DNA from: Eledone cirrhosa | Lineage: Eukaryota | Direction of reading: 5' to 3' | Assembly: GCA_964016885.1 (NCBI GenBank) | Contig: OZ024742.1 | Span: 28,830,001 to 28,894,000 of the forward strand | DNA length: 64,000 nt | Shown here: positions 29,651-63,520 of the stretch, piece after piece | Layout of the letters: every line of letters starts with the position of its first letter | Numbering within the stretch: the stretch's first letter is position 1 | Made by a program: the position numbers and the translations under genes | The notes under the pieces: generated by a model | What the model saw: the letters and a program-made list of their open reading frames with translations, nothing else | Database searches by the model: none | Told to the model about the DNA's origin: nothing

Positions 29651-29865
29651 CTCTCTCTCTCTCCAGTTCCCACATCCTAGGTGGCCTTGTACGTATGTTA
29701 AATTGTTGATTATCAGAATTATTACACTGCTGGGAAAATACCTTGCGGTATTTGTTGTTCCAGTTGTTTACGTTATGAATTCAAATCCCATCAAATACAA
29801 TTATGTCTGTCAACATTTTGAGATTCATAAAATAAGTACCAGTCAAGTAGGAGAGTCGAGTACGA

Positions 29866-36400: not shown

Positions 36401-36662
36401 GATCCCGGAAGATTGACCTTACCTCGAGATCCAGACATTTCCTAAACAGCACAGCCACTCCACCTCCCATTCCCGGCCGACTAACAGATGCAAAGATCTG
36501 ATAATCGTCGAAAATCGGCGCCAGTGCGCGTGTGTCGGAAATTCTGGTCTCGCTGATGGCAATTACATCCATTCCTAGTGACCTGAGGTCGTTGAGCAAG
36601 TGACCTTGCTTCCAGGGCGACCCCAGGCCACGAACATTTAAACTTCCTACTCTTATGGCCAT
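33496..36662 (-). pseudogene. Element A ORF2 (APE endonuclease, reverse transcriptase, C-terminal zinc finger); one frameshift near 35845
   Basis: APE motifs SLNVRGL, ISETR, VYAP, GDWN, YIDRIF, SDHK. RT motifs KSPGLDGL, RPITLLN, DQSKAFDRV, RQGCPLS, YADD. C-terminal CPRC...ETVLHALVQC. Confidence 0.93.
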
Positions 36663-38810
36663 GCTGGCAGGATGAATGGGAGAGGAAAGGTTTACTTACC
36701 TTCCGGGGTCTTGTGAAGGTCGGGTGGTTCGACCTCCATGGTTTGTGGGGTTTCTTTTGGGAACCCCTTTAATAGTCTTGAAGTGGGTTTTACGTTCGGG
36801 GTTCCCACATCCCGAGGAAAGCTCTTTCGAATTTCTTTGTATGAAGCGAGCGACATTCGCATCACAAGCAAATTATCTGGTACGCGAAATGTGCTCGCTT
36901 CAAATGTTTCCCCCTCTTTTTCGATGTTTGTGCTTCGTGCTACATGGGCCATCAATTCCTTGTTGGCCCTTCTGGCAAGCACGAAGTTTTTAATGTTTTG
37001 TTGCTCGGGTTTTATTTGTTCGTGTGATTGTGGTGGTGATAGCTTTGTTAGTGTTGTTTCTATTGTGTCTGCGTTTGTTGTGGGTGGGGTGTCTGTAGTT
37101 TCTGATGTTTGTGTGTCTATTTGTTCTTGTGTCTGTTTAGCTTGTTTGCGTTTGGGGGATTTTGGTGGTTGTGTTGGTGATGCTGTGGGGAAAGTGTTTG
37201 TGTGGGTGGTGTGTGTATTTTTTTTGTGGGGGTGTTTGTGCTTTGTGGATTTCTTTTTTTTGTGTTTTGTTTTTTGTATTTTGGGGGACTTTGGTTTTCC
37301 CTCATCTTCACTGCTGGAGGATGAGGGGTCTGTGGCTGTGAGCGTGTTTGTCTGAGTGAGTGTTAATGTTCTTGTTCGTGTGTGTATTTTGGGGGGGAGG
37401 TGGAATGGGAGAGCTTTCCTCGTTTCCCCCCTGGGTGTGCAATTTTGGTGGTTCCATTGTTGACGGTGTTGCTGGTGGTCCTTGTCCCGGCGTCGCCAGC
37501 AGTGGAATCTTTCGACCCCTTGCGCTTTTCGGCAGTTGAGGGCAGAAGGCTCGCAAGTGTGTCGTTTCCCCACAAAGGAAACAATGCGGCCTTTTGCCCT
37601 CAGTCATTATATGCAACACCCTCCCGTTTTGGAGGCGGATGTGGTCCGGGATTGCTTTTACGTTTTCGGGTCTGATTTGGAGCAGTATCTCCAGATCAAC
37701 CCTGGACCAGTCGTCCCTGGCAGTTCTCGTTGCCTCTACCGGGACTGTATCCGTTCCTTCCACGATTACGCAACCCAGGAGCCACCACATATCAAGTCCT
37801 GGTGGAATCCTGGGAATGCGCACACGTGCTATTCGTTTTCCCATGTGGGAGGGGTACATTATGACCTTGCTGGTTTTGCAAGGGGTCATTGAATGCTTCA
37901 CAATGCGAGGGCTTCAGACTTGAACAGCACCGAAACGGTGCCGTATTGCCTGCCCCTCTCTATGAAGTCTGTGTCCTCTCTGATGTATTTCAGTGCGGCT
38001 TCTATATCAGCTTGGGCGATTATCGCTGCCCTCTTTGTCTCTACTGAGATGCATCTGAAATGCACCGTTCTTTTTTCCACTGCCTCAATGGCTTCTGCCG
38101 GGACAGTTAAGTTTGCCCAGGTCTGCTCTTGGTTTATGATTTTCCAGGCCTGGGCCAACTTTTCCTCTCTGTTAGTTAAGTCGATGCTGTAGCATGGTCT
38201 CCTTTTAGACGCTGCCACAGCAGCGAAGGTGTTCTTGTTGGTGTTGTCACTGTTGTTGTTCTTGTTGGTGTTGCTGCTGCTATTGCTGTTGTTGTTCTCC
38301 CCTGTGTCGTGGTTACCCTCTGTGCTGTTGGCCTTGTTGGTGCTGCTGCTGTCGCTACTATTACTCTCTGTGCTGTTCGTTTTGTTGGTGCTCTCGCTAT
38401 TACCACCTTCTGCGCTGTTCGGCTTGTTGGTGTTGGTGTTGTCGCTGTTACCACCTTCCGCGCCGCTCGGCCCGTTGGTGCTGGCACTGTCGCTGCTCAC
38501 ACTCGTGCTGGTGGCGCTCCTCGCCCCACCTCTCCTCTCAACGCTCAAGTCGCCGTTGCACGACAGCAGACCCGCCTCTAGGGGGCGTGGCTCCGCCATG
38601 TTTTTTTGAGAAAAAAATTATTATTTTTCCAAAATAAAGTTCAAATATTTGGGCCAAAAGGCCCAAATATTATGAGTTATTCCTTCACAGGATACAAATG
38701 AATGTCTCATAATGCTTCAGCGGTACAAAAAAATAAACAATTCTCCACAATTAATCCTCAAAAAAATTGCTTCCTCACGGAGCTTCAAAAAACGTACATC
38801 CACTTTCGTC
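33511..38810 (-). mobile_element. L1/Tx1-type non-LTR retrotransposon A: 5' end intact, 3' end truncated
   Basis: 5' UTR at about 38600-38810, ORF1 with zinc knuckle, and ORF2 with APE, RT and CCHC. Homology to element B stops at VKIDPP (about 33511). Confidence 0.93.
36692..38599 (-). pseudogene. Element A ORF1 (gag-like, CCHC zinc knuckle); frameshifts near 37900 and 37395
   Basis: MAEPRP... start, N/S-rich N-terminus, CFLCGETTHLRAFC (CX2CX4HX4C), K/T/P-rich linker. Ends ...HKTPEGK* 30 bp before the ORF2 ATG. Confidence 0.85.
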
Positions 38811-38841
<31 letters not shown>

Positions 38842-38890
38842 TTAACAATGACAACAATAATGATATCAATAACAATAATAATAATGATTT
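38811..38890. repeat. (AAT)n microsatellite separating Tx1 elements A and B
   Basis: Directly visible. Confidence 0.9.
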
Positions 38891-39162
38891 CATTTATTAG
38901 CCACAAGGGCCGACATGTAGGGACAATACAAAGACAGGGACAGTGGGGGTTTACAATAAGGTCGAGTAAAAGTGCACAATGGCAAGACTAATTTAACAAT
39001 GAAAATATAAAAATATAAAATAAACTATGCATAAATATAACAAAATAAATTCCCCGATAGGGGGTGGACGATCCTGGGGTGACTCGGGTACCCCACCAAT
39101 CCAAACCACCCTGCGCTTCTAGGGTACCCAGGGAGAGCAACCTTCTCCCCAAGTTAGCTAGC

Positions 39163-42100
39163 CTATAGGCGCATGGTCAGAGTAGGCCCATTCACACGAG
39201 CCATTCTCGCCACATTCACCCACCTTTTAGAAAATGTACTGGGGGGCAGCACTTCTCTCTCCACCCTCACCTTCCTTTCCAGGTGAAACTTGAAGAAGTT
39301 GATGAGGGATTGGCCGAAGAGAAAAGTGTCTGTCTTCAGTCCTTTTAACCTGGTCCACCATACAACCTCTTTTGCAACTGCCACCAGACAGAGGAAAATT
39401 TCCTGCTCTTCCTGACCTGAGAAAGGCGGTGGATCGATCTTCACTATGGACTCGGCCGATAGCCGGATTCGTTCCACACGCGAGAGTAGCTATTCGACAT
39501 AACTCCACAAGTCAGTAATGCACGGACATTGGACAAGTGCGTGCAGAACAGTTTCGTCGTGCTGTGCGCATCTTGGGCAGGTCCGTCTGACAGCACTTCC
39601 GTGCCTGTAGAGTTTATCCCGAACCGGCAGTGCCCCCCGGTAGCACTGCCAAGCGAGGGATTTCTGGAAATTGTGCATCGTCCCCGGCTCAAAAGTCCTC
39701 CGGTACAGACTGGCCAGTTCGACTTCGTCGAGGCCCAAAGCTTCTCCGAGTGCGTCATCGCACTTGCCCACCACTAATCCTCTATAGAACTCGAGAGTGG
39801 AAGTTCCATTGATCGCATTGCCGCTTGGTAGAGGGCAGTGAGTGCCTGGCAACATTCCAGGTGCCAGTCACCCAGTCTCGGTCTCTTCTTGACCCAGGAC
39901 TGCAGCTCAGTTAAAGAAATGAGCTGCGGAAAGGCCCGTCTGATAAACGGCGATCACACCTGTTCACCGTTGAGGCAGAATATCTGGAGATGGCGCAGCC
40001 TCAACGCATGTCTGCGCATCATTAGCGACGGCATGCCCAGCCCTCCGCGTAGAGGGTGCTGGCAGCAGATGGACCGCCTCACCAACGGAACTTGTCCTCT
40101 CCACAAGAATTTGAAGAGGAGCCGTTCCAACATGACGAGGCGCGGACGGGGGCAAGGCACGACGGTCAGGCGGTAGTAGATGACGGGCGCGATGTACGCA
40201 TTCGCCACCTCCGCGCGACCTTTCAGTGATAGCTTCCTCCCAGCCCATTTTTGGGTGAGACTGGCTACTCTACTCGTTACCTCATCCCAATTCTTTTCCA
40301 CCTGGATGTCTGGTCCGAACCAAACCCCAAGCAACGTTACCGGTCCATCCGTCCAGCGCCCCACGACGCTGTTGGACGGCATGGGCTTGCCTCTACAGGT
40401 TCCGAGCTGCAAGCCCACCGACTTTTCCGGGTTAAGTTTGGCTCCTGTCAACCTTTCATATTCCTTCAATAAGGTGCCGACCACCTCGATTTCTGAGGTG
40501 TTCGACACCATCACGGTGATGTCGTCCGCATAAGCCGACACCGCCTTTCCACTTCCCGGTTCGAGCGGGATGCCCTGCAACAGCTCCAGCTTCCGCAGTA
40601 AAGGCTCGAGAGTCAACACGTACAGGAGGGAAGAGCGAGAGGGCACCCTTGGCGGACCGATCGGGAGAGCCGAAATGGTTCCGAGAGGTGGCCATTAACC
40701 TTGACCACCGAGCGTGTGCGGCTGTGCATTGCAGCGATCCAGCTTCTAAAGACAGAGCCGAAGCCAGCTGCTTTGAGGACAAACTCCAGATACCGATGGT
40801 CGACCCAATCGAATGCTTTCGATTGATCTAAATTGATCAGTGCCCCACCGAAGCCAGGTTTACACCCTACCTTCTCTATGATGTATCGCATGAGGTGGAG
40901 ATTGTCGTGTATGGACCTGGCTGGGATTGCGCAAGTTTGCGCCTCCCCAACCAAATCCTCGACGACAAGCGCCAATCTCTTTGCTAACACCTTGGCCAAA
41001 ATCTTAAACTCTGTGTTGAGCAGAGTTATGGGCCTGAAGTTGTCTAATGTATCCCTCTTGTTCTCGTCTTTCCTTATCAGCGTCACCACTCCCCTGCTCA
41101 CAGAACTGGGAATACTCCCATTCTGCTGCCAGTTCCAGTAGAGTGCTTCGAGGAGTTCGGAGAACAAGTCTGGCATATTTACGTAAAGCTCGTAGGGCAG
41201 GCCATCCAAACGGGGTGACTTGTGCCTCATGCAGCCGACAAATGCGTCCTGAATTTCGGCTGAAGTAATCGGCCTTTCGCAGCGCTCAGCGTCGACCGTC
41301 GAGATGCGCGGCAAGCCGTCAAGGTAGGGACTGAAATCAGCTACTCTCTCTGACTCGCCACTCTCCCCGAACAACCGAGCAAAGTGGTGGCGAAAGGCCT
41401 CACACATCCGCTTGGAATCGCTTATCTCGTGTCCGTCTCGGTCCGCCAAAGACCGAATTGTGGTTTTATTACCACGCTGCGCACTGCCACGCGGGCGGCC
41501 CATCGACCAGCTTTGGTTCCCTCGTTTCTCAGCGCACACGCCTTAGCTCTGACAATGCAACCTTCGTGTTTCGCATTGAAGAAATTATCTAATGCCATTC
41601 TCGCCGCTAGCACGTCAGTTGCAATGCCACTACAAATAGCCTCGTCTAACTTATCTACCAGCTCCCCCTCCTTTCTATTTTTCTCTAACGCTAGTTCTTT
41701 GCTGAACACTATCGAAGTTACTCTAATCTCTCTTTTGAGAGCCCCACCATCTGTTGTTGATGATCCCCCCTGTCAACTTTTGCTTAACTAAATTGTTGAC
41801 TCGGTCCCTGTAAGCCTTACGTGCCGGAAATGACATATTCAGCTTCCAGTAACCCGGTCCTAACCTACGCGTTTTATCTAGGTCGACCGTACAGATCACA
41901 AATTTGTGATCTGAATAGGCGACCATTTTAAAAAGTGGGCAGCCCACACTATTTCTATCTATTTTCCTAATGAAGATCCTGTCTATATACGATCTAGATG
42001 ACCCCATTCGGTTGGTCCATGTCCACATTGGCACATTGGGGAAATCTAGTCGATACCTGTCAGACAGTTGGAACTGGCTGAGTAGGTGCTTGAGGCTTTT

Positions 42101-42584
42101 GCACCCCCCGCTCCTATCGGCTACTCCCACACAATCCCAGCGTGCGTCTAAGATGCCATTCCAGTCCCCCACTAACAGTAAAGGGCGAGACGTACCCAGA
42201 AAGGTCTCCAGGCGCCTAAAGAAGTCTGGTCGTCCGGCTCCTGTAGGGGCGTAGACGGCCAGCAGTCTAAAGGCACCACCTTCGCTACTGCTCACATCCA
42301 AGACCACCAACTTACCATCCGGGTCCCGGAAGATCGACCTTACTTCGAGATCCAGTCCTTTCCTAAACAGCACTGCCACCCCACCCCCCATTCCCGGTCT
42401 GCTAACATGCGAAGATCTGATAGTCGTCGAAAATGGGGGCTAGTGCGCGCGTGTCGGAAATTCTGGTCTCGCTGACGGCAATCACATCCATTTCCAGCGA
42501 CCTGAGGTCGTTGAGCAGGCGACCCTGCTTCCAGGGTGACCCCAGGCCGCGAACATTTAAACTTCCTACTCTTAATATGGCCAT
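39163..42584 (-). pseudogene. Element B ORF2 (APE-RT-zinc finger), multiply frameshifted with stops
   Basis: The same motifs as element A are spread over the ORF pieces 42402-42584, 41723-42391, 41422-41709, 40613-41539, 39954-40646, 39490-39855 and 39163-39477. Confidence 0.92.
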
Positions 42585-42613
42585 ATTGGTAAGCTAAGAG
42601 AGAGAGGGAAGGT

Positions 42614-44445
42614 TTACTTACCTCCCGGGGTCTTGTGAAGGTCGGGTTGTTAGACCTCCATGGTTGGTGGGGTTTCTTTTGGGAACCCCTTTAAAAGTCT
42701 TGATGTGGGTTTCACATTCGGGGTTCCCACGTCTTGAGGAAAGTTCTCTCGAATTTCTTTGAAGGAATTGAGTGCCATTCGGACCAGCAGCAAATCTTCT
42801 GGCACACAAAATGTGCTCATTTCAAAAATCTCCCCCTCTGTTTGAATGTCCTCGCTTCGTGCAAAGAGGGCTATCAGTTTATCGTTGGCCCTTCTGACAG
42901 GCACGAAGTTTTTAACATTTTGTTGGTGTGGTTTTATTTGCTTTCGTTTTGGTGACTGTGGTGGTGATGGTTTTGGTGGTGTTGTTTCGGGTATGTCTGT
43001 GTTTGTTGTAGGTGTGGTATCTGCAATTTCAGGTATTTGTGTGTTGATTTGTACTTGTGTTTGTTTAGGTTGTTTGCGTTTCGGGGATTGTGGAGGTGGT
43101 GTCGATGTTGCTGTTGGTGATGATGTTATTGGGGAAGTGTTTGCGTTCGTGGTGTCTGTATTTTTTGTTGTGTGTTTTTGTGTTTTGTTGGGGCTTTTTT
43201 TTTTTTGTGAGTTTTCTCTGGTTTTTTGCACTTTTGGGTTTTCCTTCATCTTCGCTGCTGTAAGACAAAGGGGCTGTGTCTGTGAGTGTCTCTGTGTCTG
43301 TGTGTGCGTTTATTGTTTTGTCTATGTGTATAATTAGAGGGGGGGAATGGGAGAGCTTTCCTTGTTTTCCCTTTGGATCGGTTTTGGTGTTGGTGGTGAT
43401 CCGGCTGTTTTTGATGTTGGTGTCCGTGTTTTTGTTGGTGTTGTTTTTGGTGGTGGTGGTGGTGGTGCAGCTTTCCGTGCTGACACTGGCGTTGGCAACA
43501 AAGGAGGTTTGCGACCCCCTGCATTTTTGCGCTGAGGGCAGAAGGCTTGCAGATGCGTTGCTTCCCCGCAGACGAAGCAGCGTGGCCTTCTTCCGTCAAT
43601 GATTAGTTGGATTGTTGTCCCGTCCTGCAGGCGGGCAAAATCCGGGATGTTGTTCATGTCCTCCGGTTTCATTTGGAGAAGAATCTCCAAATCCATTCCG
43701 GACCAGTCCTCTCTCTGTGTCCTTTTGATGTCTAGGAGGGCAGTGTCTGTCCCCTCCTCGATTACGCATCCCAACAGCCACCATATGTTCATTCCTGGTG
43801 GGATGCTGGGAATGCGTACCTTTACTGTCCTTTAACCCATGTAGGACGGATGCATAATAATGCGTTCTGTTCTGCAGGGGTCACCGAGTGCTTAATAGCG
43901 GGAGCCTCGGTTTTGAACAGTACCGAGATGGTACCGAACTGTTTGCCTCTTGCTTTGTACTCTATGTTACTTTCGATGTACTCCAAAGCAGCCTCGACCT
44001 CTGCTTGGCTGGCAAGTTCCACTTTTCGTGTCTGCACCGAAATGCATCGAAATAACACCGTCCTCCTTTGCATGGCCGCTATTGCCTCGTCCGGGATGGC
44101 CAGGATTGCCCAGGACTTCTCCCGTTTAATTAGCCTCCACGCTTGGGCCAACTGTTCTTCTTTATTGCTAATATTAATATCAATATTCAATAAACGCTTT
44201 GTTTTTGCTGTTGCTGCAGCAAATGTGGAGCTTCTGATGCTCTTATTGTTGGTGTTGTCATTCTTGCTGTTGTTATTGGTGTTGTTGTTGTTGTTGTTTT
44301 GTTTGTTGATGCTGTTGCCACCGCCATCTGTGTTTACATTGAAGCTGTCGGTGTTATTGTCGTTATTGATCTGAGTTGTTGTTGTGGTGGTGGTGGTGTT
44401 GGCGGTGGTGGTGATGTCGTTTTCAGATGATACTGCTGCTATCAC
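42614..44445 (-). pseudogene. Element B ORF1 (zinc knuckle), disrupted
   Basis: Pieces 43822-44445, 43334-43792 and 42650-43249 are homologous to element A ORF1 (EEQLAQAW, RTVLFRCISV, WWLLGCVI, DVGTPNVKPTSRLLKGFPKETP). Confidence 0.85.
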
Positions 44446-44729
44446 AGAAGGTTGTGATGGTAGCTTTTTAGTTTTGCCTCACATTCAGTAGAGTGGATGA
44501 CAGGCATGACTGTAGCCGTCGTAGTCGTGGTGAAATCTACAGTGGCTGCCTTTAAACTTTTGACAATAATACAAATATCAGAGAATGATATTTAACATCA
44601 TAATAATGATCATAATTACAACAACAACAACAATCGAATAAACGACGCCAACACAATGGTTGACCCAAATCAATGGAATCTCTTAGATTAAACATTGATT
44701 ATGGTCGTCACTAGAGTGCGTGATTGGAA

Positions 44730-45632: not shown

Positions 45633-48600
45633 ACCAACACCAACAACACCAAAACCATCACCACCACCACAACAACACCAACACCATCACCACCACCACC
45701 ACCACCACAACAACAACACCACTACAACAACACCACAACAACAACACCAACACCATCACCACCACCACAACAATACCAACACCATCACCACCACCACCAC
45801 AACACCAACACCACAACAACACCTACACCATCACCACCACCACAACAATACCAACACCATCACCACCACCACCACAACAACAACACCACCACAACAACAC
45901 CACAACAACAACACCAACACCATCACCACCACCACAACAACATCACCAACACCACCACAACGACAACACCATCACCAACACCACAACAACACCACCACCA
46001 TCACAACACCACAACACCAACACCATCACCACCACCACAACAACATCACCAACACCACAACAACACTAACACCAACACCACAACACCAACACCAACACCA
46101 CAACACAACAACACCACAACACAACAACAACAACACCATCACCACCACCACAACACCAACAACATCACCAACACCACCACAACAACATCACCAACACCAC
46201 AACAACAACAACACCATCACCAACACCACAACAACAACACCACCACCATCACAACACCACAACAACAACACCAACACCACAACAACACCAACACCACAAC
46301 AACAACACCATCACCACCACCACAACACCAACAACATCACCATCACCACCACAACACCAACACCATCACCACCACAACAACAACACCATCACCACCACCA
46401 CCACAACACTATCACCACCACAACACCAACAACATCACCACCACCACAACAACAACACCATCACCACTACTACAACACCAACACCACAACACCAACACCA
46501 TCACCACCACCACAACAACATCACCAACACCACAACAACACTAACACCAACACCACAACACCAACACCATCACCACCACAACACCATCAGCAACACCACA
46601 ACAACAACACCACCACCACCACAACACAACAACACCACAACACAACAACAACAACACCATCACCACCACCACAACACCAACAACATCACCAACACCACCA
46701 CAACAACAACACCATCACCACCACCACAACATCACCAACACCAAAACAACAACAACACCATCACCAACACCACAACAACAACACCACCACCATCACAACA
46801 CCACAACAACAACACCACCACAACACAACAACACCACAACACAACAACAACAACACCATCACCACCACCACAACACCAACAACATCACCAACACCACCAC
46901 AACAACAACACCATCACCACCACCACAACAACATCACCAACACCACAACAACAACAACACCATCACCAACACCACAACAACAACACCACCACCATCACAA
47001 CACCACAACAACAACACCAACACCACAACAACAACACCATCACCACCACCACAACACCAACAACATCACCATCACCACCACAACACCAACACCATCACCA
47101 CCACAACAACAACACCATCACCACCACCACCACAACACCATCACCACCACAAGACCAACAACATCACCACCACCACAACAACAACACCATCACCACTACC
47201 ACAACACCAACACCACAACAACAACAACATCACCACCACCACACCATCAACACAACTACAACACCATCACCACCACCGCAACACCATCACCAACACCACC
47301 ACAACACCATCACCACCACAACAACAACACCACCACCACAACACCAACACCATCACCAACACCACCACAAAACCATCACCAACACCACCACAACACCATC
47401 ACCACCACCACAACAACAACACCACCACCACAACACCAACACCATCACCAACACCACCACAACACCATCACCACCACCACAACACCAACACCATCACCAC
47501 CACCACAACAACAACACCAACACCACAACAACACCATCACCACCACCACAACACCATCACCACCACCACAACACCAACAACATCACCAACACCACCACAA
47601 CACCATCACCACAACACCATCACCACCACCACAACACCAACGCCATCACCAACACCACCGCAACACCATCACCACCACCACAACACCAACACCATCACCA
47701 CCACCACAACAACAACACCATCACCACCACCACAACACCATCACCACCACCACAACAACAACACCATCACCACTACCACCACAACAACATCACCACCACC
47801 ACAACACCATCACCACCACCACAACACCATCACCACCACCACAACACCATCACCACCACCACAACAACATCACCAACACCACCACCACACCAACACCATC
47901 ACCACCACAACAACATCACCACCACCACAACACCATCACCACCACCACAACACCAACAACATCACCAACACCACAACAACAACACCATCACCACCACCAC
48001 AACAACACCATCACCACCACAACACCATCACCACCACCACAACAACATCACCAACACCATCACAACACCATCAGCAACACCACAACAACAACACCATCAC
48101 CACCACCACCACAACAACATCACCAACACCACCACAACACCATCACCAACACCACAACAACAACACCATCACCACCACCACCACAACAACATCACCACCA
48201 CCACAACACCATCACCACCACCACAACAACAACACCATCACCACCACCACAACACCAACACCATCACCACCACCACAACACCAACACCATCACCACCACC
48301 ACAACACCAACACCATCACCACCACCACAACACCAACAACATCACCACCACCACAACACCAACACCATCACCACCACCACAACACCATCACCAACACCAC
48401 AACAACAACACCATCACCACCACCACCACAACAACAACATCACCACCACCACAACACCATCACCACCACCACAACACCAACAACATCACCACCACCACAA
48501 CAACAACACCATCACCACCACCACAACACCAACACCATCACCACCACCACAACACCAACAACATCACCACCACCACAACAACAACACTATCACCACCACC

Positions 48601-48685
48601 ACAACACCAACACCATCACCACCACCACAACACCAACACCATCACCACCACCACAACACCAACAACATCACCACCACCACCATAA
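45633..48685. repeat. About 3-kb CAC/CAA/CAT trinucleotide-derived satellite (ACCATCACCACCACCACAAC-type units)
   Basis: Directly visible; almost no G on the + strand. Confidence 0.95.
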
Positions 48686-48711
48686 CAATGAGAAAAGAAG
48701 ACAAAGCAAAC

Positions 48712-49879: not shown

Positions 49880-51855
49880 TTCCTTTCTTTCTTAAGTACG
49901 TTAATTTGTTAACGACACCAACAGTTGACTGATAAAATGACAAGTCAGTCAATCATATCGGTGGCCTGCCCACAGCCCCGACGGACAGAATGGAGAAGGC
50001 GTTTACCCGGGGGACGGCAAGGGAGACGCGCTGAAAAAGCCATTCCAGCTCGCGGTGCTCACACGTGCGGCTGGCCAGCTCAGCGCCTATGGTGGTGAGT
50101 AGGGAGGTAGCCCTAGGGCCGAGGACACCAGAGGTCTCCACTGCCAAGAGCACGACCGGAAATCTGTCAGAGAGCGACCGGTATTTGAAGAGTTTGGCCT
50201 CCTCAGCCCGACATGCAGCAGGACCTGGGTTAGTCGCAGACTGCACCAGGTTGCCTCAGCCCGACATGCAGCAGAACCTGGGTTAGTCACAGACTGCACC
50301 AGGTTGCCTCAGCCCGACATGCAGCAGAACCTGGGTTAGTCGCAGACTGCACCAGGTTGCCTCAGCCCGACATGGAGCAGGACCTGGGTTAGTCACAGAC
50401 TGCACCAGGTTGCCTCAGCCCGACATGGAGCAGGACCTGGGTTAGTCGCAGACTGCACCAGGTTGCCTCAGCCCGACATGCAGCAGAACCTGGGTTAGTC
50501 ACAGAATGCACCAGGTTGCCTCAGCCCGACATGGAGCAGAACCTGGGTTAGTCGCAGACTGCACCAGGTTGCCTCAGCCCGACATGCAGCAGAACCTGGG
50601 TTAGTCACAGACTGCACCAGGTTGCCTCAGCCCGACATGCAGCAGAACCTGGGTTAGTCACAGACTGCACCAGGTTGCCTCAGCCCGACATGGAGCAGAA
50701 CCTGGGTTAGTCGCAGACTGCACCAGGTTGCCTCAGCCCGACATGCAGCAGAACCTGGGTTAGTCACAGACTGCACCAGGTTGCCTCAGCCCGACATGCA
50801 GCAGAACCTGGGTTAGTCGCAGACTGCACCAGGTTGCCTCAGCCCGACATGCAGCAGAACCTGGGTTAGTCGCAGACTGCACCAGGTTGCCTCAGCCCGA
50901 CATGCAGCAGAACCTGGGTTAGTCACAGACTGCACCAGGTTGCCTCAGCCCGACATGGAGCAGAACCTGGGTTAGTCGCAGACTGCACCAGGTTGCCTCA
51001 GCCCGACATGCAGCAGGACCTGGGTTAGTCACAGACTGCACCAGGTTGCCTCAGCCCGACATGCAGCAGAACCTGGGTTAGTCGCAGACTGCACCAGGTT
51101 GCCTCAGCCCGACATGCAGCAGGACCTGGGTTAGTCGCAGACTGCACCAGGTTGCCTCAGCCCGACATGCAGCAGAACCTGGGTTAGTCGCAGACTGCAC
51201 CAGGTTGCCTCAGCCCGACATGGAGCAGAACCTGGGTTAGTCGCAGACTGCACCAGGTTGCCTCAGCCCGACATGCAGCAGAACCTGGGTTAGTCACAGA
51301 CTGCACCAGGTTGCCTCAGCCCGACATGCAGCAGAACCTGGGTTAGTCACAGACTGCACCAGGTTGCCTCAGCCCGACATGCAGCAGAACCTGGGTTAGT
51401 CGCAGACTGCACCAGGTTGCCTCAGCCCGACATGCAGCAGAACCTGGGTTAGTCGCAGACTGCACCAGGTTGCCTCAGCCCGACATGCAGCAGAACCTGG
51501 GTTAGTCACAGACTGCACCAGGTTGCCTCAGCCCGACATGGAGCAGAACCTGGGTTAGTCGCAGACTGCACCAGGTTGCCTCAGCCCGACATGCAGCAGG
51601 ACCTGGGTTAGTCACAGACTGCACCAGGTTGCCTCAGCCCGACATGCAGCAGAACCTGGGTTAGTCACAGACTGCACCAGGTTGCCTCAGCCCGACATGC
51701 AGCAGGACCTGGGTTAGTCGCAGACTGCACCAGGTTGCCTCAGCCCGACATGCAGCAGAACCTGGGTTAGTCGCAGACTGCACCAGGTTGCCTCAGCCCG
51801 ACATGCAGCAGGACCTGGGTTAGTCGCAGACTGCACCAGGTCGCGGACGGCTAGA
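49880..51855 (-). mobile_element. 3' fragment of a CRE-clade (RLE) non-LTR retrotransposon, with an internal minisatellite expansion
   Basis: AACRAEEAKLFKY...LAVETSGVLGPRA...LFQRVSLAVPRVNAFSIL matches the CRE C-terminal pattern AExxKxxKY...ETxGxxG...QRxSxAxQRGNA. Confidence 0.75.
50201..51841. repeat. 53-bp minisatellite, about 31 copies
   Basis: CTGCACCAGGTTGCCTCAGCCCGACATG(C/G)AGCAG(A/G)ACCTGGGTTAGTC(G/A)CAGA, with CTGCACC at 50241, 50294, 50347 and onward to 51831. Confidence 0.97.
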
Positions 51856-54621: not shown

Positions 54622-54677
54622 GTTGATTTAAAACTGCACTATCCACAAGTGTTTTTACCTTCATATCATGTCTTCCT

Positions 54678-54746
54678 GTTTTATCTGATGAAAACACAAA
54701 TATTATTGCATGGTGATATTTGTTTTTGAGATGCGCATAATAAAAT
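54678..54746 (+). ncRNA. Type I minimal hammerhead ribozyme remnant (GAAA changed to GAGA)
   Basis: Stem I TTTTAT/ATAAAA; core CTGATGA at 54685-54691; stem II ACAAATATTA/TGATATTTGT; GAGA at 54728-54731; palindromic stem III TGCGCA; AUA cleavage triplet ending at 54739. Confidence 0.65.
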
Positions 54747-54775
54747 ACATGGAACTCTTTTAGCCATCTTTTGTT

Positions 54776-54846
<71 letters not shown>

Positions 54847-54848
<2 letters not shown>

Positions 54849-56075
54849 AACCCAGAGAACCCATTCGATGTCTCAATGGGCTCTTATGACAGTGCCGAGG
54901 TTTGTGATCTGGTCGGCCTATTCCTCTTACATACACTTAAAGAAAAATTTCCTAACCATATTTTTGGGCTTTATCGCGATGATGGTCTAATACTTTCCCA
55001 TACCACCATAGGCCATAACTTAGATAGATTAAGGAAAGACTTAATAAAAACCTTCGCTAGTTTTAATCTTAAAATTACTATTGACACTAACCTTTCCAAC
55101 GTAGATTTCCTAGATATAAACCTAGATTTGCCTACTGCTTCTTATAAACCATACCATAAACCTAATGAAAACTTAAAATATATAAATAAAGGATCTTGCC
55201 ATCCACCTATAGATTTTAAAAACCTTATCCCTAATATTAGCCGTAGGATCTCCACCCTCTCTTCCTCAGAAGCTATTTTTAATAAGGCACCCCCCTACTA
55301 TAATAAAGCCCTCCAAAATAGCGGCTTTAGCGAACCGATTAAATACATACCTAACTACACTAACTCTATTAAACATAAAAATAGGAAAAGAAAAATAATC
55401 TGGTTCACACCCCCCTACTCTCTAGCAGTTAAAACTAATGTAGGCAAAAAATTCCTAGAACTCCTAGATAAACATTTCCCTAGGACACATAGATACTATA
55501 AGATCTTTAACAGAAACTGTGTTAAAATTAGCTATTCCTGCGGTCCCCCTATTAAGTCCTATATCCTCAACAAAATATCACCTAGAGAAAATCAAACTTA
55601 CTCCTGTAGAATCAAAAGTGAATGCCCATTACAAGGTAAATGCAACACCAAAGCCATTGTATATGCGGCTAAAGTGACAACCATCAGCAACAACCATCCA
55701 GCCACCAGTGAACGATATGTGGGTATGACGCAAGACAGATTCAAAACGCGTTATTACTCACATGTCGCATCCTTTCGACATCCAGAAAAAAGATTTACAA
55801 CAGCTCTGGCTAGCAGAATTTGGGATTTGAAAGACCAAAGCATCCAATATAAACTAGATTGGTCAATTTTGAACCAATCTAAAAAATATGCTAGAGGAAC
55901 AAGAAAATGCACGCTCTGCATAAATGAAAAATTTTGAATATTGCAAAATCTTAAATCACCAAAGACCTGCCTGAACACAAAGACGGAAATTTTCACCAGT
56001 TGCCCACACATGAAATCACACCTGCTTTCCAGCTCATATAAACTTAACACACTTTCAGATACTTATCCTCCATAA
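54847..56075 (+). pseudogene. PLE1 RT-GIY-YIG ORF fragment; in-frame TGA at 55935-55937, frame continues to TAA at 56073-56075
   Basis: After CTLCINEKF* the frame continues ILQNLKSPKTCLNTKTEIFTSCPH..., matching the LNxRxExxxxCxH C-terminus. Confidence 0.85.
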
Positions 56076-56485
56076 ACTCTTATTATTCTCTTTTTAATTA
56101 CCCTTTCTGACTTACTTTCATTTTTATCCTTGTCAATAATTTCATTTATTTTCACTTTTATTTTTACTTCACATCCACCCCCCCCACCTTTATTCTCCAA
56201 TCCACTTTCTATTTTCTATTTTTTACTTCCCCTTCTTTTACTTCCCTTTTTCCTCCACTAACTGATTATACTTGTCTTTTGTGTTTTTCAATCCAGATAT
56301 ATTTTTCATTTTTATTTTTATTTTATTTTTGCGCAGCCTATCTTACAATTTTATATTTGTACTTATTTATCCACAAGTTTTTTACACCCTGTATCAATAT
56401 GGCTGAACGCCTTAATGTGTGTATACTTTTTATATATGTACATGAGTGACTACGTGTGTGCGCGCGCGTGCGTGTATGTATATGT

Positions 56486-56533
<48 letters not shown>

Positions 56534-57309
56534 GTGTGTGTACAGGTGTTTGTGTGTGTGTGTATGTATATATTATGCGTATGTGTACGTGTCTTTATAT
56601 CCGTGTTTTTGACATCTCGGTTTTATGTTTTGTTCCTTTTTTTCTTCTTCTCCCCCCCCCCCCTCCCTTTTTTTTACTTACTCAGTTTCATGCGTGGGCA
56701 TGCAAACAGGTTTATATGCGTGAGTATAAGTATGTGTGTGTGTGTGTGTGTGTGTACGTATCGAACGTATGGATGTGTAAGTGCGCGTGTGTTGATAAGC
56801 ATAATTATCTTTACATTTCTTTTGTGAGACACGCGTGTCTGTGTATGTATGTACCCCCTTTTTTGTTTTCTTTAATTTTTTCTTTCTAATATCTTTCCTT
56901 TCTAATTTATCGTTATTATATTTTTATAAATATATCGAGACTGATACTTTTCTTTTAATTATTACACTCCCTTACCTCCTTTCTTTCCGCATCTAAGTGT
57001 ACGAGTGTGCAGGCGTTTTATGCGCGCGCCTTCATATTCATATATTTACGATGTAACCATTTCTGTCTGTATAATACAGACATATAGATACATTTGCCCT
57101 AAATTTTAGAATTATGCACACTTTCTCACTATACATATACATGTGCGCATATACATATATGCACATCTGTGAGCGTATATACATACATATACACACACCT
57201 AACTATATTTCTTGATAGATTTTTATATATTTCAATTTCTATTTCATTTATCTATATCTTTTTTTGATTTTCTTGATGTGTTTTTCTAAGTATTTGCCCA
57301 TGTTTTATA

Positions 57310-57385
57310 TTGCCTCGTCTGACGAACGAATGAAGTCGTTTATTTCGTATTTGCCTCATTCGGGAAACCTCTGGTAATGAGGTAA
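57310..57385 (+). ncRNA. Type I hammerhead ribozyme (PLE1 3' end)
   Basis: Stem I TTGCCTCGT/ATGAGGTAA (9 bp with G-U pairs); CTGACGA at 57319-57325; stem II CGAATGA/TCATTCG; GAAA at 57364-57367; stem III CC-TCT-GG; GUA cleavage after 57376. Confidence 0.85.
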
Positions 57386-57483
57386 TTATATTGTATTGAT
57401 TTTTATACATTAAATTTTGCTCTGATACTTACATAGAGCACTCTTCATTTCTATGACCTTTTCTGTTTCCAACGGAAATTTCA

Positions 57484-57487
<4 letters not shown>

Positions 57488-58044: not shown

Positions 58045-58045
58045 T

Positions 58046-60293
58046 GAAAAACCGAAAATAATTAACATTTCAAATACAAACCTCTCAGCCCAACAAGTAA
58101 AAATTCTCTCCAAAGGTCTGAAATTCACACCAACACCACAATATCCTAACCCCAACGAGATAAATGACGATATCTCACACTTCTGTAGAAAATTACGTCT
58201 CACAGAGGAATTCTTTGACAAGGAGAATAACGACGAATCAATTGTACGGAATAAAAGCAGCTACAACCCAACAAAAGGTAGAAACAGAGTTCTGGACAAA
58301 TTTTGTGACCACATAGCTACCTTCCCATACCATGAACTACCGCAACCTAAACCCAAACCAAGTCGAAGGGAATGGTAGATTATCCATGAACTAAAAAACA
58401 ATACGGACATTGAAATTAAGGAAGCGGACAAGGGAAGTACTGTTGTCATTATGGAGGCTGAAAAATATAAAAATTCTATGTTCTCTCTCTTACAAAATAC
58501 TAATTACTATGAAAGAGTAAAAAACTACCAGCAATCAAAAATAATGACCAAATTAAACACACTGATTTATCGATACCAGGAAGACCTAACTAAAAAGGAA
58601 CGCGATTATTTAACAAATTTTGAATACAAAACCAGCAACCTTTACGGACTTCCGAAGATCCACAAATGTAAAATAATCAACGATGCCTGTAAACAATCCA
58701 CCTCAGCCTGCGTGAACACACAATACCCCACAGACCTTAAATTAAGACCAATTGTAGCGGGCCCACAATGTGAAACACACAGATTGAGCAACTTTATAGA
58801 CATACTACTGAAACCAATACTGAAACACATACCAAGCCTTGTAAGAGACGATCTGGACCTCTTAAACCACCTCCCCAAACATGTCAACAACGACACTATT
58901 ATTGTGTCTTTCGATGTAGTGAATCTCTACACAACGATCCCACACCAATACGGACTAGAAGCAATAGGATTCTGGCTAGAGAAATATCCCAATGAGATAC
59001 CTGACAGAATAGAAAAAAGCTTCATCACCGAGGGATTAAAATTCATCCTACAGAACAACTTTTTTGATTTCGATGGCAATACTTACAAGCAAATATCGGG
59101 GACTGCGATGGGCACAAAAGCCGCTCCAACTTATGCCAACTTAGTCATGGCATACTTAGAAGTCCAGATATATGAACAGTCCAAATCAAAATACGGATTG
59201 AACTTCCACAAATATTTATCAGAGAATTGGAAACGCTACTTGGATGATTGCCTCATTCTTTGGTCCCACGCACTCGACCAACTGAAGGATTTCAAAAACT
59301 TAATAAACGGCATCAATAACCACATCCAATTCACAATGGAATACAGCCAAGATCAACTCCCATTTCTGGACATCTTAATCACACAAAAAGACACAAATAT
59401 CGAAACTGACATACACTACAAACCAACAGATTCCAAACAATATCTGCTATTCACCTCCAACCATCCAAAGCACACGAAGACAAACATTCCTTTTAACCTA
59501 GCAAGAAGAATTTGCACAATTGTCTCCAATTATGAAACGCGAAATAAAAGACTTCAAGAATTAAAGGAAATTCTACTTGAGAGAGAGTACCCACTATTAC
59601 TAATAAATAATGGAATAGAAAGGGCTAAAGCAATAGGCATTGATGAATTACGGAAACAGAAACAAATTCAAGGTACGTCCAATATTCTATCATATATCTC
59701 AACACACAACCCAAGAAATGCGGAAGCTTACAACACTATTCACAATAACATCCCACTACTAAAATAAAACCCAAGAATGAAAAAAGCCCTTGAAACACAC
59801 AAAATAATCAAAAGCAAAAGACAACCAAAATCACTGAAAACATTACTCACCAATGCCAAATTACCTACCACAAACCCACAACCAAGTATCAAAAAATGTG
59901 GTCGCTCTAATTGTGGAACCTGCACTCACCTCATTGAAGGCAATACGTATACATTTAAATCAGGACAAAATTTTACTGTAAAAAAATTACTTCACTTGCT
60001 CATCAAAAAATCTAATTTATGCCATTAAATGTAAAGGATGCAATGAAGATTATATAGGACAAACTAAACTCACACTCAGAAACAGAATGACAGTTCATCG
60101 CCAACAATTACGAGATCCAACCACGAGACAGATACCACTAAGTGCATATCTAGACATTTGCGCAAGTAATAAGACACACAAATTCCAAGTCTTCCCATTT
60201 TACCTTTGCGCTAACAATACAACAGAACAAATGCGAATAAATAAGGAAAATATGTTTATTCAAAAATATAGACCAACATTAAATAAGGTTTAA
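58046..60293 (+). pseudogene. PLE2 RT-GIY-YIG ORF; stops near 58376 and 59765, frameshift in the A-run at about 59980-59986
   Basis: ORF track pieces 58451-59767, 59777-60028 and 60087-60293, plus upstream in-frame sequence. Confidence 0.88.
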
Positions 60294-60454
60294 TATACAT
60301 TATGTCAACACCACAATATGACATACACACACACACATAACACCTTCTACTTTAGAAAATAAAAACCCGAACTAAATAAACCTTAACATACGTTTGCACT
60401 GGCAATACAACAGCAAACACGAAAAAGTCAGGAAAATATGTTCATTCAAAAATA

Positions 60455-61095
60455 TTCCTACTAAAGGAATCACTTTCCTATACACACACATACACACACA
60501 CACACAATATATATATATATATATATATATTCTCTTCATCTTAACATGCTAACCATACTCCCACACACATAACACCCATACACAAACATAACAACCCCCA
60601 CACCTACAACTCCCTCCCCATTTCTACTAATAGAACCACTTTCCTACACACATATATATATACACACACACAAAATATATATTCTCTCCATCTTAACATA
60701 CTCGCACACACACACATAACACCCATATACACACACACACTACTCCCTCCCCCATCTCTACTAATAGAATCATCTTCCTACTAAAGGAATCACTTTCCTA
60801 CACACACACATACACACACACACAATATATATATATATATATTCTCTTCATCTTAACATGCTAACCATACTCCCACACACATAACACCCATACACACACA
60901 TAACAACCCCCACACCTACAACTCCCTCCCCATTTCTACTAATAGAAACACTTTCCTACACACATATATATATACACACACACAAAATATATATTCTCTC
61001 CGTCTTAACATACTCGCACACACACACATAACACCCATATACACACACACACACCTCCCTCCCCCATATCTACTAATAGAATCATCTTCCAATAC
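60455..61095. repeat. About 320-bp tandem duplication in the PLE2 3' UTR, with internal subrepeats
   Basis: TTCCTACTAAAGGAATCACTTTCCTA occurs at 60455 and 60775, and the downstream sequence is collinear. Confidence 0.85.
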
Positions 61096-61636
61096 ACACA
61101 TACACACACACATATACACACACACAAGCACACAAATAAACACATATCTTCAGTCTCAATAGAAAATCTGAACTCTGACACATGAACTCCGACAGCTGGC
61201 CATATTCACTGAACCAGAACATTTCTCCCAATCCCTTTTCCCTTGACCACTATCTCTCCATTGTCATAACATTCACTATAAAGACTACAGAATAGTTTTC
61301 CAAATAAGGGCGCAAAAATGTAATGAAAACTTGTTCACGTGACAGCCAAATTTCATTTATAACCAACCAAAAAAAAGCCTTCGTGAGCCTCCTTTTTTCA
61401 AGTAAAAAGAAATTCAAACACTCATATATGAAAAAACAACCTGTGACCCCCCCCCCTCTCTTATTTGAAGAACTATTGTAACGCGAACTGGCGCGAAATT
61501 TATTATAATTATTGACAAACCAATCAAATTACTTCTCGAAAAACCTGGCTTTCGAGCCACTTTTTCCATATAAAACAAGTAACATTTATAGACCAACAAG
61601 ATGTGAGAAAAACCACAGACCCTCCATCTCAACTCA

Positions 61637-61674
61637 CCTTTTGAAAAGCAGAAGAACTGCGAAACCGGTAAAGG
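61637..61674 (+). ncRNA. Minimal type I hammerhead ribozyme with U3:A8 core variant (PLE2 3' end)
   Basis: Stem I CCTT/AAGG; core TTGAAAA at 61641-61647; stem II GCAG-AAGAA-CTGC; GAAA at 61661-61664; palindromic stem III CCGG; GUA cleavage after 61670. Confidence 0.8.
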
Positions 61675-61992
61675 AACCAAATAAATATATATATTTTTAA
61701 AAAAAATAAGACTTCAGTTGCATTTTCGATTTCATCTCTTTTTCTTTATACTTCCACTCGTGTAGGACACCTCGGTTATTTTTCATCTTGTAAAAAAAAA
61801 CCTCATTTTCTAATATATATAATATATATATATAATATATATATATAATATATATATATAATATATATATATAATATATATATATAATATATATATATAA
61901 TATATATATATAATATATATATATAATATATATATAGAATATATATATAGAATATATATATATATATAATATATATATAGAATATATATATA

Positions 61993-62045
<53 letters not shown>

Positions 62046-62503
62046 TTAGAAACACACAGATACATGCGGACGGTTCAGTCTGGTTCAGTCTGGTTCAGTC
62101 TGGTTCAAACTGAATTGGTCTGTCCCAGTCATTCATTGAGCAACATCGGTGAAGTTGGCACCCTTAACTCACAGTTGGGTGCGGATGCATTCATGTATAT
62201 ATGTGTGTGTCCGCATGTATCTGTGTGTTTCTAAATATATTAATAACTCCCTCTGGTCGAGCAATCTTTGAAGTGTGGGGACAACTGGAAAGCTTCCATT
62301 ACTCATACTTCTCGCCTTCTTCACTACCTCTTCTACGGCCTCGATATGAATACCCCCTCCGCCTCCGTGGTATTTTCTTCGTGGTTATAAGAGGCTTAGC
62401 TCTGTTTCTCGACCGTTATATCGCGTGACTGTCTCCCCCTCCGCCTTTTGGGATTCTTTCTCACGTCGTGTAGACGCGTTCTTGAGACTAGTAAAATGAG
62501 GTA

Positions 62504-62591
62504 TCCTCTTGATAAGTCGGCAGACCTCGCAAGGACTCTATATCTTTGATATATTGTTTTTGTTTATGCCACGAAACTACGTAGTCGAGGA
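62504..62591 (+). ncRNA. Type I hammerhead ribozyme, U3:A8 core variant (unit 1)
   Basis: Stem I TCCTC/GAGGA; core TTGATAA at 62509-62515; stem II GT(C)GGCA/TGCCAC; GAAA at 62573-62576; palindromic stem III CTACGTAG; GUC cleavage after 62586. Confidence 0.8.
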
Positions 62592-63094
62592 ATTTAGGAA
62601 CAGTTTAGGTATGATACATTTTATTACTAATTATATCTAAATGTTTCTTCTCTCTTCATAATGTATTTTTAACTCTGATACTGGTTCAGTCTGGTTCAAA
62701 CTGAATTGGTCTGTCCCAGTCATTCATTGAGCAACATCGGTGAAGTTGGCACCCTTAACTCACAGTTGGGTGCGGATGCATTCATGTATATATGTGTGTG
62801 TCCGCATGTATCTGTGTGTTTCTAAATATATTAATAACTCCCTCTGGTCGAGCAATCTTTGAAGTGTGGGGACAACTGGAAAGCTTCCATTACTCATACT
62901 TCTCGCCTTCTTCACTACCTCTTCTACGGCCTCGATATGAATACCCCCTCCGCCTCCGTGGTATTTTCTTCGTGGTTATAAGAGGCTTAGCTCTGTTTCT
63001 CGACCGTTATATCGCGTGACTGTCTCCCCCTCCGCCTTTTGGGATTCTTTCTCACGTCGTGTAGACGCGTTCTTGAGACTAGTAAAATGAGGTA

Positions 63095-63182
63095 TCCTCT
63101 TGATAAGTCGGCAGACCTCGCAAGGACTCTATATCTTTGATATATTGTTTTTGTTTATGCCACGAAACTACGTAGTCGAGGA
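63095..63182 (+). ncRNA. Type I hammerhead ribozyme, U3:A8 core variant (unit 2)
   Basis: Same sequence as 62504-62591 at +591; cleavage after 63177. Confidence 0.8.
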
Positions 63183-63400
63183 ATTTAGGAACAGCTTAGG
63201 TATGATACATTTTATTACTAATTATATCTAAATGTTTCTTCTCTCTTCATAATGTATATATATAATATATATATATAATATATATATATATAATATATAT
63301 ATAGGAACGATCGACTTTCGTCAAATCGGACCGAGGGAACAATGATTCGTTGGTCTTTCCAATTGCTAATACTATCTATCGGTCGCAACTCCAGGTAGAA

Positions 63401-63520
63401 GGAGCAACGTGAAATAAAGTGTCTTGCTCAAGGACATAACGCGTCGCCTGGTCCAGGAATCGAACTCACAACCTTACGATTGCGAATCCAATTCTCTAAC
63501 CACTCAGCCACACGCCTTCA
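63401..63520 (-). mobile_element. tRNA-derived SINE head with a CORE-like segment
   Basis: The reverse complement reads TGAAGGCGTGTGGCTGAGTGGTTAGAG (A box)...GAGTTCGATTCC (B box)...GTCCTTGAGCAAGACACTTTATTTCAC. Confidence 0.8.

What the first reader, a model, noticed from the sequence alone, without database searches (positions are those of the whole stretch)
61637..63182. The same compensatory hammerhead core change (C3:G8 to U3:A8) in two unrelated elements
Seen: the PLE2 hammerhead has core UUGAAAA and the dimer hammerheads have UUGAUAA, while their stems share no sequence. Established: positions 3 and 8 form a Watson-Crick pair in the hammerhead catalytic core, and U3:A8 is a rare natural variant that retains activity. 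Inference: a paired double change in two families looks like selection for function rather than decay. It may mark a lineage-specific hammerhead class, or a partnership between PLE2-like autonomous elements and the non-coding dimer that lies about 230 bp downstream.
Basis: partly seen in the sequence, partly recalled or inferred. Interest (0 to 1): 0.75.

Follow-up and report, generated by a model that had tools for sequence, protein, structure and literature searches.

The report
Recurrent hammerhead core swap in retroelements
Two neighbouring jumping elements share the same base-pair swap in their predicted self-cutting RNA, but the swap is already in print, sits in tens of thousands of copies from many families of this genome and likely arose several times, so it does not mark these two as partners; the non-coding one is likely copied by a different element group.

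Summary
A broken Neptune-type Penelope-like element (PLE2) and a 591-bp tandem non-coding retrozyme both carry type I hammerhead folds with U3:A8. The pair is fixed in both families. Genome-wide, positions 3 and 8 covary: C3:G8 and U3:A8 motifs far exceed controls, while U3:G8 and C3:A8 sit at background. That supports selection on the pair. U3:A8 is not lineage-specific: about 1,300 Schistosoma PLE hits are published (PMC4209133). It is not a PLE2 partner mark: it occurs in Neptune-type and Hydra-type PLEs and several retrozymes, often beside C3:G8 sister families, so it likely arose at least four times here. PLE2 flanks only 3 of 40 retrozyme loci, no more than other (TA)n-targeting families. 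The retrozyme's two fixed 3' ends are each followed by a hairpin seen in Hydra-type PLE tails and not in PLE2, so a Hydra-clade enzyme likely mobilises it. Cleavage and expression are untested. The scan already noted this retrozyme and the hairpin on other DNA. The repeated switching is the new part.

The parts
58045..61812 (+). PLE2: broken Neptune-type Penelope-like element (RT, CX4CxxC linker, GIY-YIG, long 3' region); stops at 58376-58378 and 59765-59767 and a frameshift near 59981; copies end at about 61750 or 61812
   Evidence: about 98% identical copies genome-wide; two ends
61637..61674 (+). PLE2 minimal type I hammerhead, U3:A8 (61641, 61646), palindromic stem III, predicted to need a dimer; predicted cut after 61670
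   Evidence: monomer hammerhead fold -0.4 against -7.5 kcal/mol, stem III duplex -8.3
61813..62045 (.). (TA)n microsatellite, the shared insertion target that separates the two elements
62038..62089 (-). 5' inverted piece of the retrozyme ending at end B (62038-62071), followed by extra copies of a 10-bp unit at the inversion joint
   Evidence: L008
62090..63257 (+). 591-bp non-LTR retrozyme, 5'-truncated dimer (62090-62666, 62667-63257), ending at end A next to (TA)n
   Evidence: the two units differ at 1 of 577 shared positions; longest stop-free frame 86 codons, GC 41.8%
62504..62591 (+). Retrozyme hammerhead 1, U3:A8 (62509, 62514), long stem II, 10-nt palindromic stem III; predicted cut after 62586
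   Evidence: constrained hammerhead fold -21.5 against -22.9 kcal/mol, stem III duplex -12.9
63095..63182 (+). Retrozyme hammerhead 2, identical; predicted cut after 63177
62672..62732 (+). Hydra-type tail stem just after end A (eroded in the young subfamily, intact in the older one)
62837..62854 (+). Hydra-type tail hairpin just after end B (also at 62246-62263)
54847..57484 (+). PLE1: 5'-truncated Hydra-type Penelope-like element with a canonical C3:G8 hammerhead (57313-57382, core 57319-57325) and the tail hairpin (57419-57440); the kind of element that likely mobilises the retrozyme
   Evidence: ORF-to-hammerhead contiguity seen in other copies (L398, L130, L159)

Best explanation
Both motifs are type I hammerhead folds in which the 3:8 pair is kept paired across families, and U3:A8 is a common alternative state that likely arose separately in several Penelope-like elements and retrozymes of this genome, so its presence in these two neighbours is likely coincidence rather than partnership. 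Shown: fixation in both families, genome-wide covariation, C3:G8 and U3:A8 sister families, and shared (TA)n targets. Inferred: a master copy switches by two transitions (C to U, G to A), probably through a short-lived U3-G8 wobble, and then amplifies. The hammerheads would cut tandem transcripts as dimers through their palindromic stem III, and the 591-nt monomer would circularise. A Hydra-clade PLE protein would bind the tail hairpins, nick (TA)n, and start reverse transcription at ends A and B. That would give the tandem, 5'-truncated and inverted insertions seen. PLE2 and the retrozyme landed independently in one (TA)n field.
For: Covariation with one shared pattern: C3:G8 21,149 (control 1,127), U3:G8 1,302 (1,449), C3:A8 1,516 (1,527), U3:A8 with position 7 not A 6,729 (3,954); plus 23,536 (71) and 6,874 (0). 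U3:A8 lies downstream of Neptune-type ORFs (PLE2, L163, L250) and Hydra-type ORFs (L214, L231, L233), and C3:G8 downstream of both kinds too (L152, L155; PLE1, L245, L298). PLE1 and PLE2 proteins align only over 109 residues at 30%. In the 310-316-bp retrozyme group the 7 U3:A8 rows form one branch (100/99) among 5 C3:G8 rows, 60-73% alike for the closer C3:G8 family. Two more mixed groups align at 45-55%. Older 587-bp subfamily: 33 of 34 motifs U3:A8; hammerhead frame 42 of 44 identical against 418 of 547 elsewhere. Ends: 58 of 62 outer 3' ends in 40 loci fall at A or B, 54 of those 58 abut (TA)n, and 17 of 22 inverted insertions have one A and one B. This is the PLE tail signature of two RT start sites (PMC11167929). 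The tail stem is found in PLE1 and the other ORF-linked Hydra-type tails examined and in 0 of 4 Neptune-type tails. It pairs in 39 of 40 cells with a G-C/A-U compensation in 4 of 10 rows and follows both retrozyme ends. PLE2 lies within 2 kb in 3 of 40 retrozyme loci, against 6, 5, 5, 5, 4 and 3 for six other families.
Against: No cleavage or RNA data for these elements. The cut-to-first-end distance is about 80 nt in both PLE2 and the retrozyme, and the last bases before retrozyme end B resemble PLE2's distal end. PLE2's tail starts with the 5' half of the hairpin. The PLE1-retrozyme tail similarity is modest alone (z 2.3, 6 of 300 shuffles, best of 17 non-self tails). The motif was defined after looking, the rows are related, and the shuffle control gives 11 of 500. 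The outer pair is broken at both hairpins of the young, most active subfamily. PLE1 itself flanks only 1 of 40 loci. The Hydra protein tree does not resolve one or two U3:A8 origins. The direction of change rests on midpoint roots and on C3:G8 being the general state. No currently intact Hydra-type copy was identified.
Confidence: 0.63

Rival explanations
1. One reading: the retrozyme is mobilised by PLE2-like Neptune elements and U3:A8 reflects shared ancestry or co-adaptation to the PLE2 protein.
For: Same core state; about 80 nt from cut to first end in both; similar last bases at the distal ends; both families young. PLE2 adjacent in 2 of 22 loci (one is this window) and 3 of 40, above the roughly 1 of 40 that motif density alone gives (my arithmetic).
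Against: No sequence similarity. Other (TA)n families are neighbours as often or more often. The retrozyme's twin hairpins are of the Hydra type, whose carriers were 20 C3:G8, 2 U3:A8 and 20 unreadable of 42. Long stem II and long palindromic stem III resemble Hydra-type hammerheads here.
Confidence: 0.15
2. U3:A8 is an adaptive, tuned state (slower, dimer-gated or protein-assisted cleavage) that PLE-dependent RNAs reach again and again.
For: At least four apparent switches with no intermediate family. Two very abundant families carry it. One construct lost activity with this swap (PMC9901934). A PLE hammerhead was protein-assisted in vitro (PMC11167929).
Against: C3:G8 families are just as successful. 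Both changes are ordinary AT-ward transitions. No kinetic data.
Confidence: 0.2
3. One old origin: the retrozyme descends from a U3:A8 Hydra-type family (such as those of L231 or L239), or cores moved between RNAs by template switching, so there are fewer independent switches than it seems.
For: The L239 family has U3:A8, a GUC cut site and the same tail hairpin. The Hydra tree does not exclude one origin among Hydra-type rows.
Against: Neither family aligns with the retrozyme (z 0.3 and -0.4). It cannot explain the nested switch in the 310-316-bp group. The ORF link of the L239 family rests on one copy and was not confirmed.
Confidence: 0.15
4. The U3:A8 motifs no longer cleave and are kept for a structural or protein-binding role.
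For: U3:A8 was low in one deep scan. Hammerhead cleavage was not needed for insertion by a PLE in vitro. Eight of nine Xenopus retrozyme dimers did not cleave.
Against: The whole catalytic frame, cut site included, is conserved between subfamilies. Natural U3:A8 was reported as active in vitro (PMC3088659 passage).
Confidence: 0.08

Closest known systems
U3-A8 minimal hammerheads of Cercyon PLEs in Schistosoma mansoni (Cervera and de la Pena 2014, PMC4209133; parts 1-2 of 4 read)
   Same: Same core covariation in a PLE terminal hammerhead, about 1,300 hits; small palindromic helix III; dimer model
   Different: Here more than 30,000 motifs in both Neptune-type and Hydra-type PLEs and in several retrozymes, with C3:G8 sister families; the passages read do not trace repeated origins
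Metazoan non-LTR retrozymes (Cervera and de la Pena 2020, PMC7229834, passages; Li, Clavereau, Pollet, bioRxiv 10.64898/2026.07.22.740005, parts 1-3 of 5)
   Same: Tandem, non-coding, low-GC units with one type I hammerhead each; proposed dependence on PLEs
   Different: 591 bp, above the 170-400 nt of the 2020 paper though inside the 51-972 bp of the preprint; U3:A8 core and 57-nt stem II domain; two fixed ends with Hydra-type hairpins point to a specific PLE clade
PLE tail and internal initiation (Frangieh et al. 2024, PMC11167929, parts 1-2 of 4; Craig et al. 2021, PMC8557442, passages and section 11)
   Same: Two fixed 3' ends, inverted 5' copies, (TA)n targets for Neptune and Hydra elements
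   Different: Tails of 165 nt (retrozyme) and about 62 nt (PLE2) rather than 30-40; the signature is seen on a non-coding passenger
Natural U3-A8 hammerheads (Perreault et al. 2011, PMC3088659, passages)
   Same: U3-A8 covariation seen in nature, described as already shown active in vitro
   Different: Several examples there; family-wide fixation in mobile elements here

Membership tests
Type I hammerhead ribozyme (U3:A8 variant) | Core U4-G5-A6, A9, G12-A13-A14, A15.1-U16.1, H17 with a Watson-Crick 3:8 pair | tested here: met
   genome-wide covariation
Type I hammerhead ribozyme (U3:A8 variant) | Helices I, II and III can form (III as monomer or through a palindromic dimer) | tested here: met
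   retrozyme monomer within 1.4 kcal/mol of the minimum; PLE2 only as a dimer
Type I hammerhead ribozyme (U3:A8 variant) | Match to an Rfam hammerhead model | tested here: not met
   the canonical PLE1 motif is also missed, so the test has little power here
Type I hammerhead ribozyme (U3:A8 variant) | Site-specific self-cleavage | not testable with these tools
   no raw RNA reads listed
Neptune-clade PLE (PLE2) | RT followed by a C-terminal GIY-YIG endonuclease | tested here: met
   GIY-YIG above cut-off; RVT_1 29.3 bits, just under the 29.6 cut-off
Neptune-clade PLE (PLE2) | CX2-5CxxC linker, DKG motif, (TA)n target, terminal hammerhead | tested here: met
   features as in PMC8557442
Neptune-clade PLE (PLE2) | Placement in a reference PLE phylogeny | not tested
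   no reference set on hand; the linker is shared with Nematis, so 'Neptune-type' is used
Hydra-clade PLE (PLE1) | CxCX5C linker, CxxC and CxH around the endonuclease end, no CCHH | tested here: inconclusive
   first linker cysteine missing in PLE1 but present in its relatives; CxxC and CxH present; CCHH absent
Hydra-clade PLE (PLE1) | N-terminal RWK and DKT motifs; reference phylogeny | not tested
   the window copy is 5'-truncated
Non-LTR retrozyme (591-bp unit) | Dispersed tandem units, each with a type I hammerhead, non-coding, GC under 45% | tested here: met
Non-LTR retrozyme (591-bp unit) | Highly self-paired monomer | tested here: met
   circular fold -173.0 kcal/mol, z -7.3, 0 of 40 shuffles as low (prediction only)
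Non-LTR retrozyme (591-bp unit) | Expressed as circular RNA | not testable with these tools
   contigs of unknown type only

The most novel reading that the evidence does not exclude
The hammerhead 3:8 pair is a toggle that selfish RNAs flip repeatedly to tune self-cleavage: at least four lineages in one genome fixed U3:A8 with no surviving intermediate family. The C3:G8 and U3:A8 sister families are then a natural experiment on whether and how fast Penelope-dependent RNAs must cut themselves, and searches limited to the canonical core miss about half of the hammerheads in such genomes.
Probability: 0.22. Interest if true: 0.7.

Novelty: new variant of a known kind. Interest (0 to 1): 0.43.

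Why it matters
The role of hammerheads in Penelope-like elements is still open (PMC8557442, PMC11167929). Sister families that differ at the catalytic pair, and a young retrozyme whose ends and tail hairpins point to a PLE clade, give ready constructs to test cleavage need and trans-mobilisation. It also shows that a shared core variant cannot be used to pair autonomous and non-autonomous elements, and that canonical descriptors undercount animal hammerheads.

Tried and rejected
Rfam scans gave only microRNA-like hits on simple repeats. No RNA holder was listed. Contigs of 5 of the 6 runs were laid and say nothing on expression; the single 620-621-nt self-overlapping contigs in X1 and X3 fit either tandem DNA or a circle. 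A low-stringency search for retrozyme relatives printed only simple-repeat matches in the first 61 rows shown. Apparent similarity of the retrozyme to the 466- and 420-bp canonical retrozymes (z 3-4) lies partly in simple repeats and is not counted as ancestry. A search for short-stem relatives gave 19 hits and no parent family, but led to the older subfamily. A canonical family with PLE2's stem III was rejected: 132 hits against 168 controls, and in the main listed family the matched stretch is part of stem II. The ORF link of the L239 family was not confirmed. Przybilski and Hammann 2007 was not held, so it is not used as evidence. The clade of Cercyon could not be found. A shuffle test for the hairpin following both ends was not run, so that point rests. 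Supplements were not read; those of PMC4209133 and of the 2026 preprint may list further U3-A8 families.

Full report
Observation. PLE2's hammerhead spans 61637-61674 with U3 at 61641 and A8 at 61646, a 4-bp stem II and a 6-nt palindromic stem III. The retrozyme's spans 62504-62591 and again 63095-63182, with U3 at 62509, A8 at 62514, a 57-nt stem II domain and a 10-nt palindromic stem III. They share no stem sequence (z -0.4). The state is fixed: 35 of 35 PLE2 motifs and 108 of 108 retrozyme motifs in fetched loci (best-scoring and partly overlapping loci), and 99 of the first 100 listed retrozyme motifs have A8. Rfam misses these motifs and also the canonical one in PLE1.

What the elements are. 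PLE2 (58045-61812) is a broken Penelope-like element with RT, a CX4CxxC linker and GIY-YIG, which I call Neptune-type by the features in PMC8557442. About four fifths of the first 100 hits belong to it, out of 23,536 in a 3.0-Gb genome. The dimer is a 591-bp non-coding unit with 6,874 hammerhead copies, many over 99% identical across contigs.

Do positions 3 and 8 covary? With one shared pattern, C3:G8 gave 21,149 hits (control 1,127), U3:G8 1,302 (1,449), C3:A8 1,516 (1,527), and U3:A8 with position 7 not A 6,729 (3,954). The A7 class was not counted with this pattern; one search covers most of it. The listed single-change hits are scattered copies of known families or chance. A structural descriptor on fetched loci gave 338 U:A, 215 C:G and 15 other of 568 hits (redundant and selected loci). 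An older 587-bp subfamily of the retrozyme has U3:A8 in 33 of 34 motifs, and one copy matches the young one at 42 of 44 hammerhead positions against 418 of 547 elsewhere.

Is it a lineage-specific class? No. PMC4209133 reports U3-A8 in Schistosoma Cercyon elements with about 1,300 hits, and PMC3088659 reports it in other natural hammerheads. In this genome canonical motifs are about as numerous. U3:A8 follows Neptune-type ORFs (PLE2, L163, L250) and Hydra-type ORFs (L214, L231, L233), while C3:G8 follows other members of both kinds. The three U3:A8 Neptune-type families group apart from the C3:G8 ones (99/98, long branches). In the 310-316-bp retrozyme group the 7 U3:A8 rows form one branch (100/99) among 5 C3:G8 rows. 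Two further groups mix both states at 45-55% identity. If C3:G8 is ancestral, this needs at least four switches; the Hydra tree cannot tell one from two. My searches found no paper on such repeated switching or on octopus hammerheads of this kind; the library lacks most subscription papers.

Is PLE2 the partner? Probably not. In 40 retrozyme loci (the first on contig C1, leaving out 9 already held with short flanks, one of which has PLE2 adjacent), PLE2 lay within 2 kb in 3, against 6, 5, 5, 5, 4 and 3 for six other families and 1 for PLE1. In the window PLE1, PLE2, the retrozyme and a SINE-like element sit in successive (TA)n tracts. The retrozyme does carry PLE-type scars: 58 of 62 outer 3' ends fall at two fixed sites 165 nt apart, 54 of these abut (TA)n, and 17 of 22 inverted insertions use one of each. 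This matches the two RT start sites that make the PLE tail (PMC11167929).

Which PLE? A short stem begins 4-14 nt after the proximal end in PLE1 and the other ORF-linked Hydra-type tails examined, and is absent from 4 of 4 Neptune-type tails, though PLE2 has its 5' half. One form has 13,145 copies against 17 controls, mostly on C3:G8 families (20 C3:G8, 2 U3:A8, 20 unreadable of 42). The older retrozyme subfamily has it intact after end A, sharing 10 and 9 bases with PLE1's two arms. Across 10 rows the 4-bp stem pairs in 39 of 40 cells with one compensated pair. Against this: the motif was defined after looking, the control is weak (11 of 500 shuffles), the young subfamily breaks the outer pair, and PLE2 and the retrozyme share an 80-nt cut-to-end distance.

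Likely mechanism. Inferred: tandem transcripts fold as double hammerheads. PLE2's motif cannot close stem III alone (-0.4 against -7.5 kcal/mol), while the retrozyme's can nearly do so (-21.5 against -22.9) and gains a -12.9 duplex as a dimer. The released 591-nt monomer is predicted to be strongly self-paired as a circle (z -7.3). A Hydra-type protein would then copy it into (TA)n from ends A and B. Activity of U3:A8 is not assured: described as active in PMC3088659, low in the one construct of PMC9901934 (passages), and cleavage was dispensable for insertion in vitro in PMC11167929.

Verdict. The parts are known kinds, and this scan noted the retrozyme, the 316-bp family and the hairpin on other DNA. 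What is added is repeated fixation of U3:A8 in sister families without intermediates, and evidence that the core state does not track the mobilising clade. Interest 0.43.

Noticed in passing
window 54622-54778: Short 3' fragment of another Hydra-type family between (TA)n tracts, with a C3:G8 hammerhead whose G12-A13-A14 box carries a substitution.
   Followed up: partly
window 60455-61090: 312-bp tandem duplication in PLE2's 3' region; this copy has 1,350 nt from endonuclease to hammerhead against about 1,035 in most others.
   Followed up: partly
window 63304-63520: SINE-like element in (TA)n with a tRNA-type B-box-like stretch (label recalled, not tested); a related copy lies in L011.
   Followed up: no
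window 33496-44478: Two broken non-LTR retrotransposon copies in tandem on the minus strand (endonuclease and RT frames).
   Followed up: no
window 1-25214: 25-kb array of a 24-bp unit with long open frames (Thr/Pro-rich in one frame); a similar array at 45635-48688.
   Followed up: no
window 50201-51841 and 28986-29656: Homogeneous tandem arrays of 53 bp (31 copies, 97%) and 64 bp (10.5 copies).
   Followed up: no
L152 (minus strand): An 863-residue stop-free Neptune-type frame followed by a canonical C3:G8 hammerhead; its 3' end was the commonest neighbour of the retrozyme (6 of 40 loci).
   Followed up: partly
L187-L200, L206-L211, L144, L241: Four more tandem hammerhead repeats: 466 bp and 420 bp (C3:G8), 316 bp (U3:A8) and 310 bp (C3:G8); one 466-bp array has about 30 units.
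   Followed up: partly
L155 and L152 tails: A hammerhead family in L155 shares its distal tail with the L152 Neptune-type family although their hammerheads differ: a possible second autonomous and passenger pair, or a chimera.
   Followed up: no
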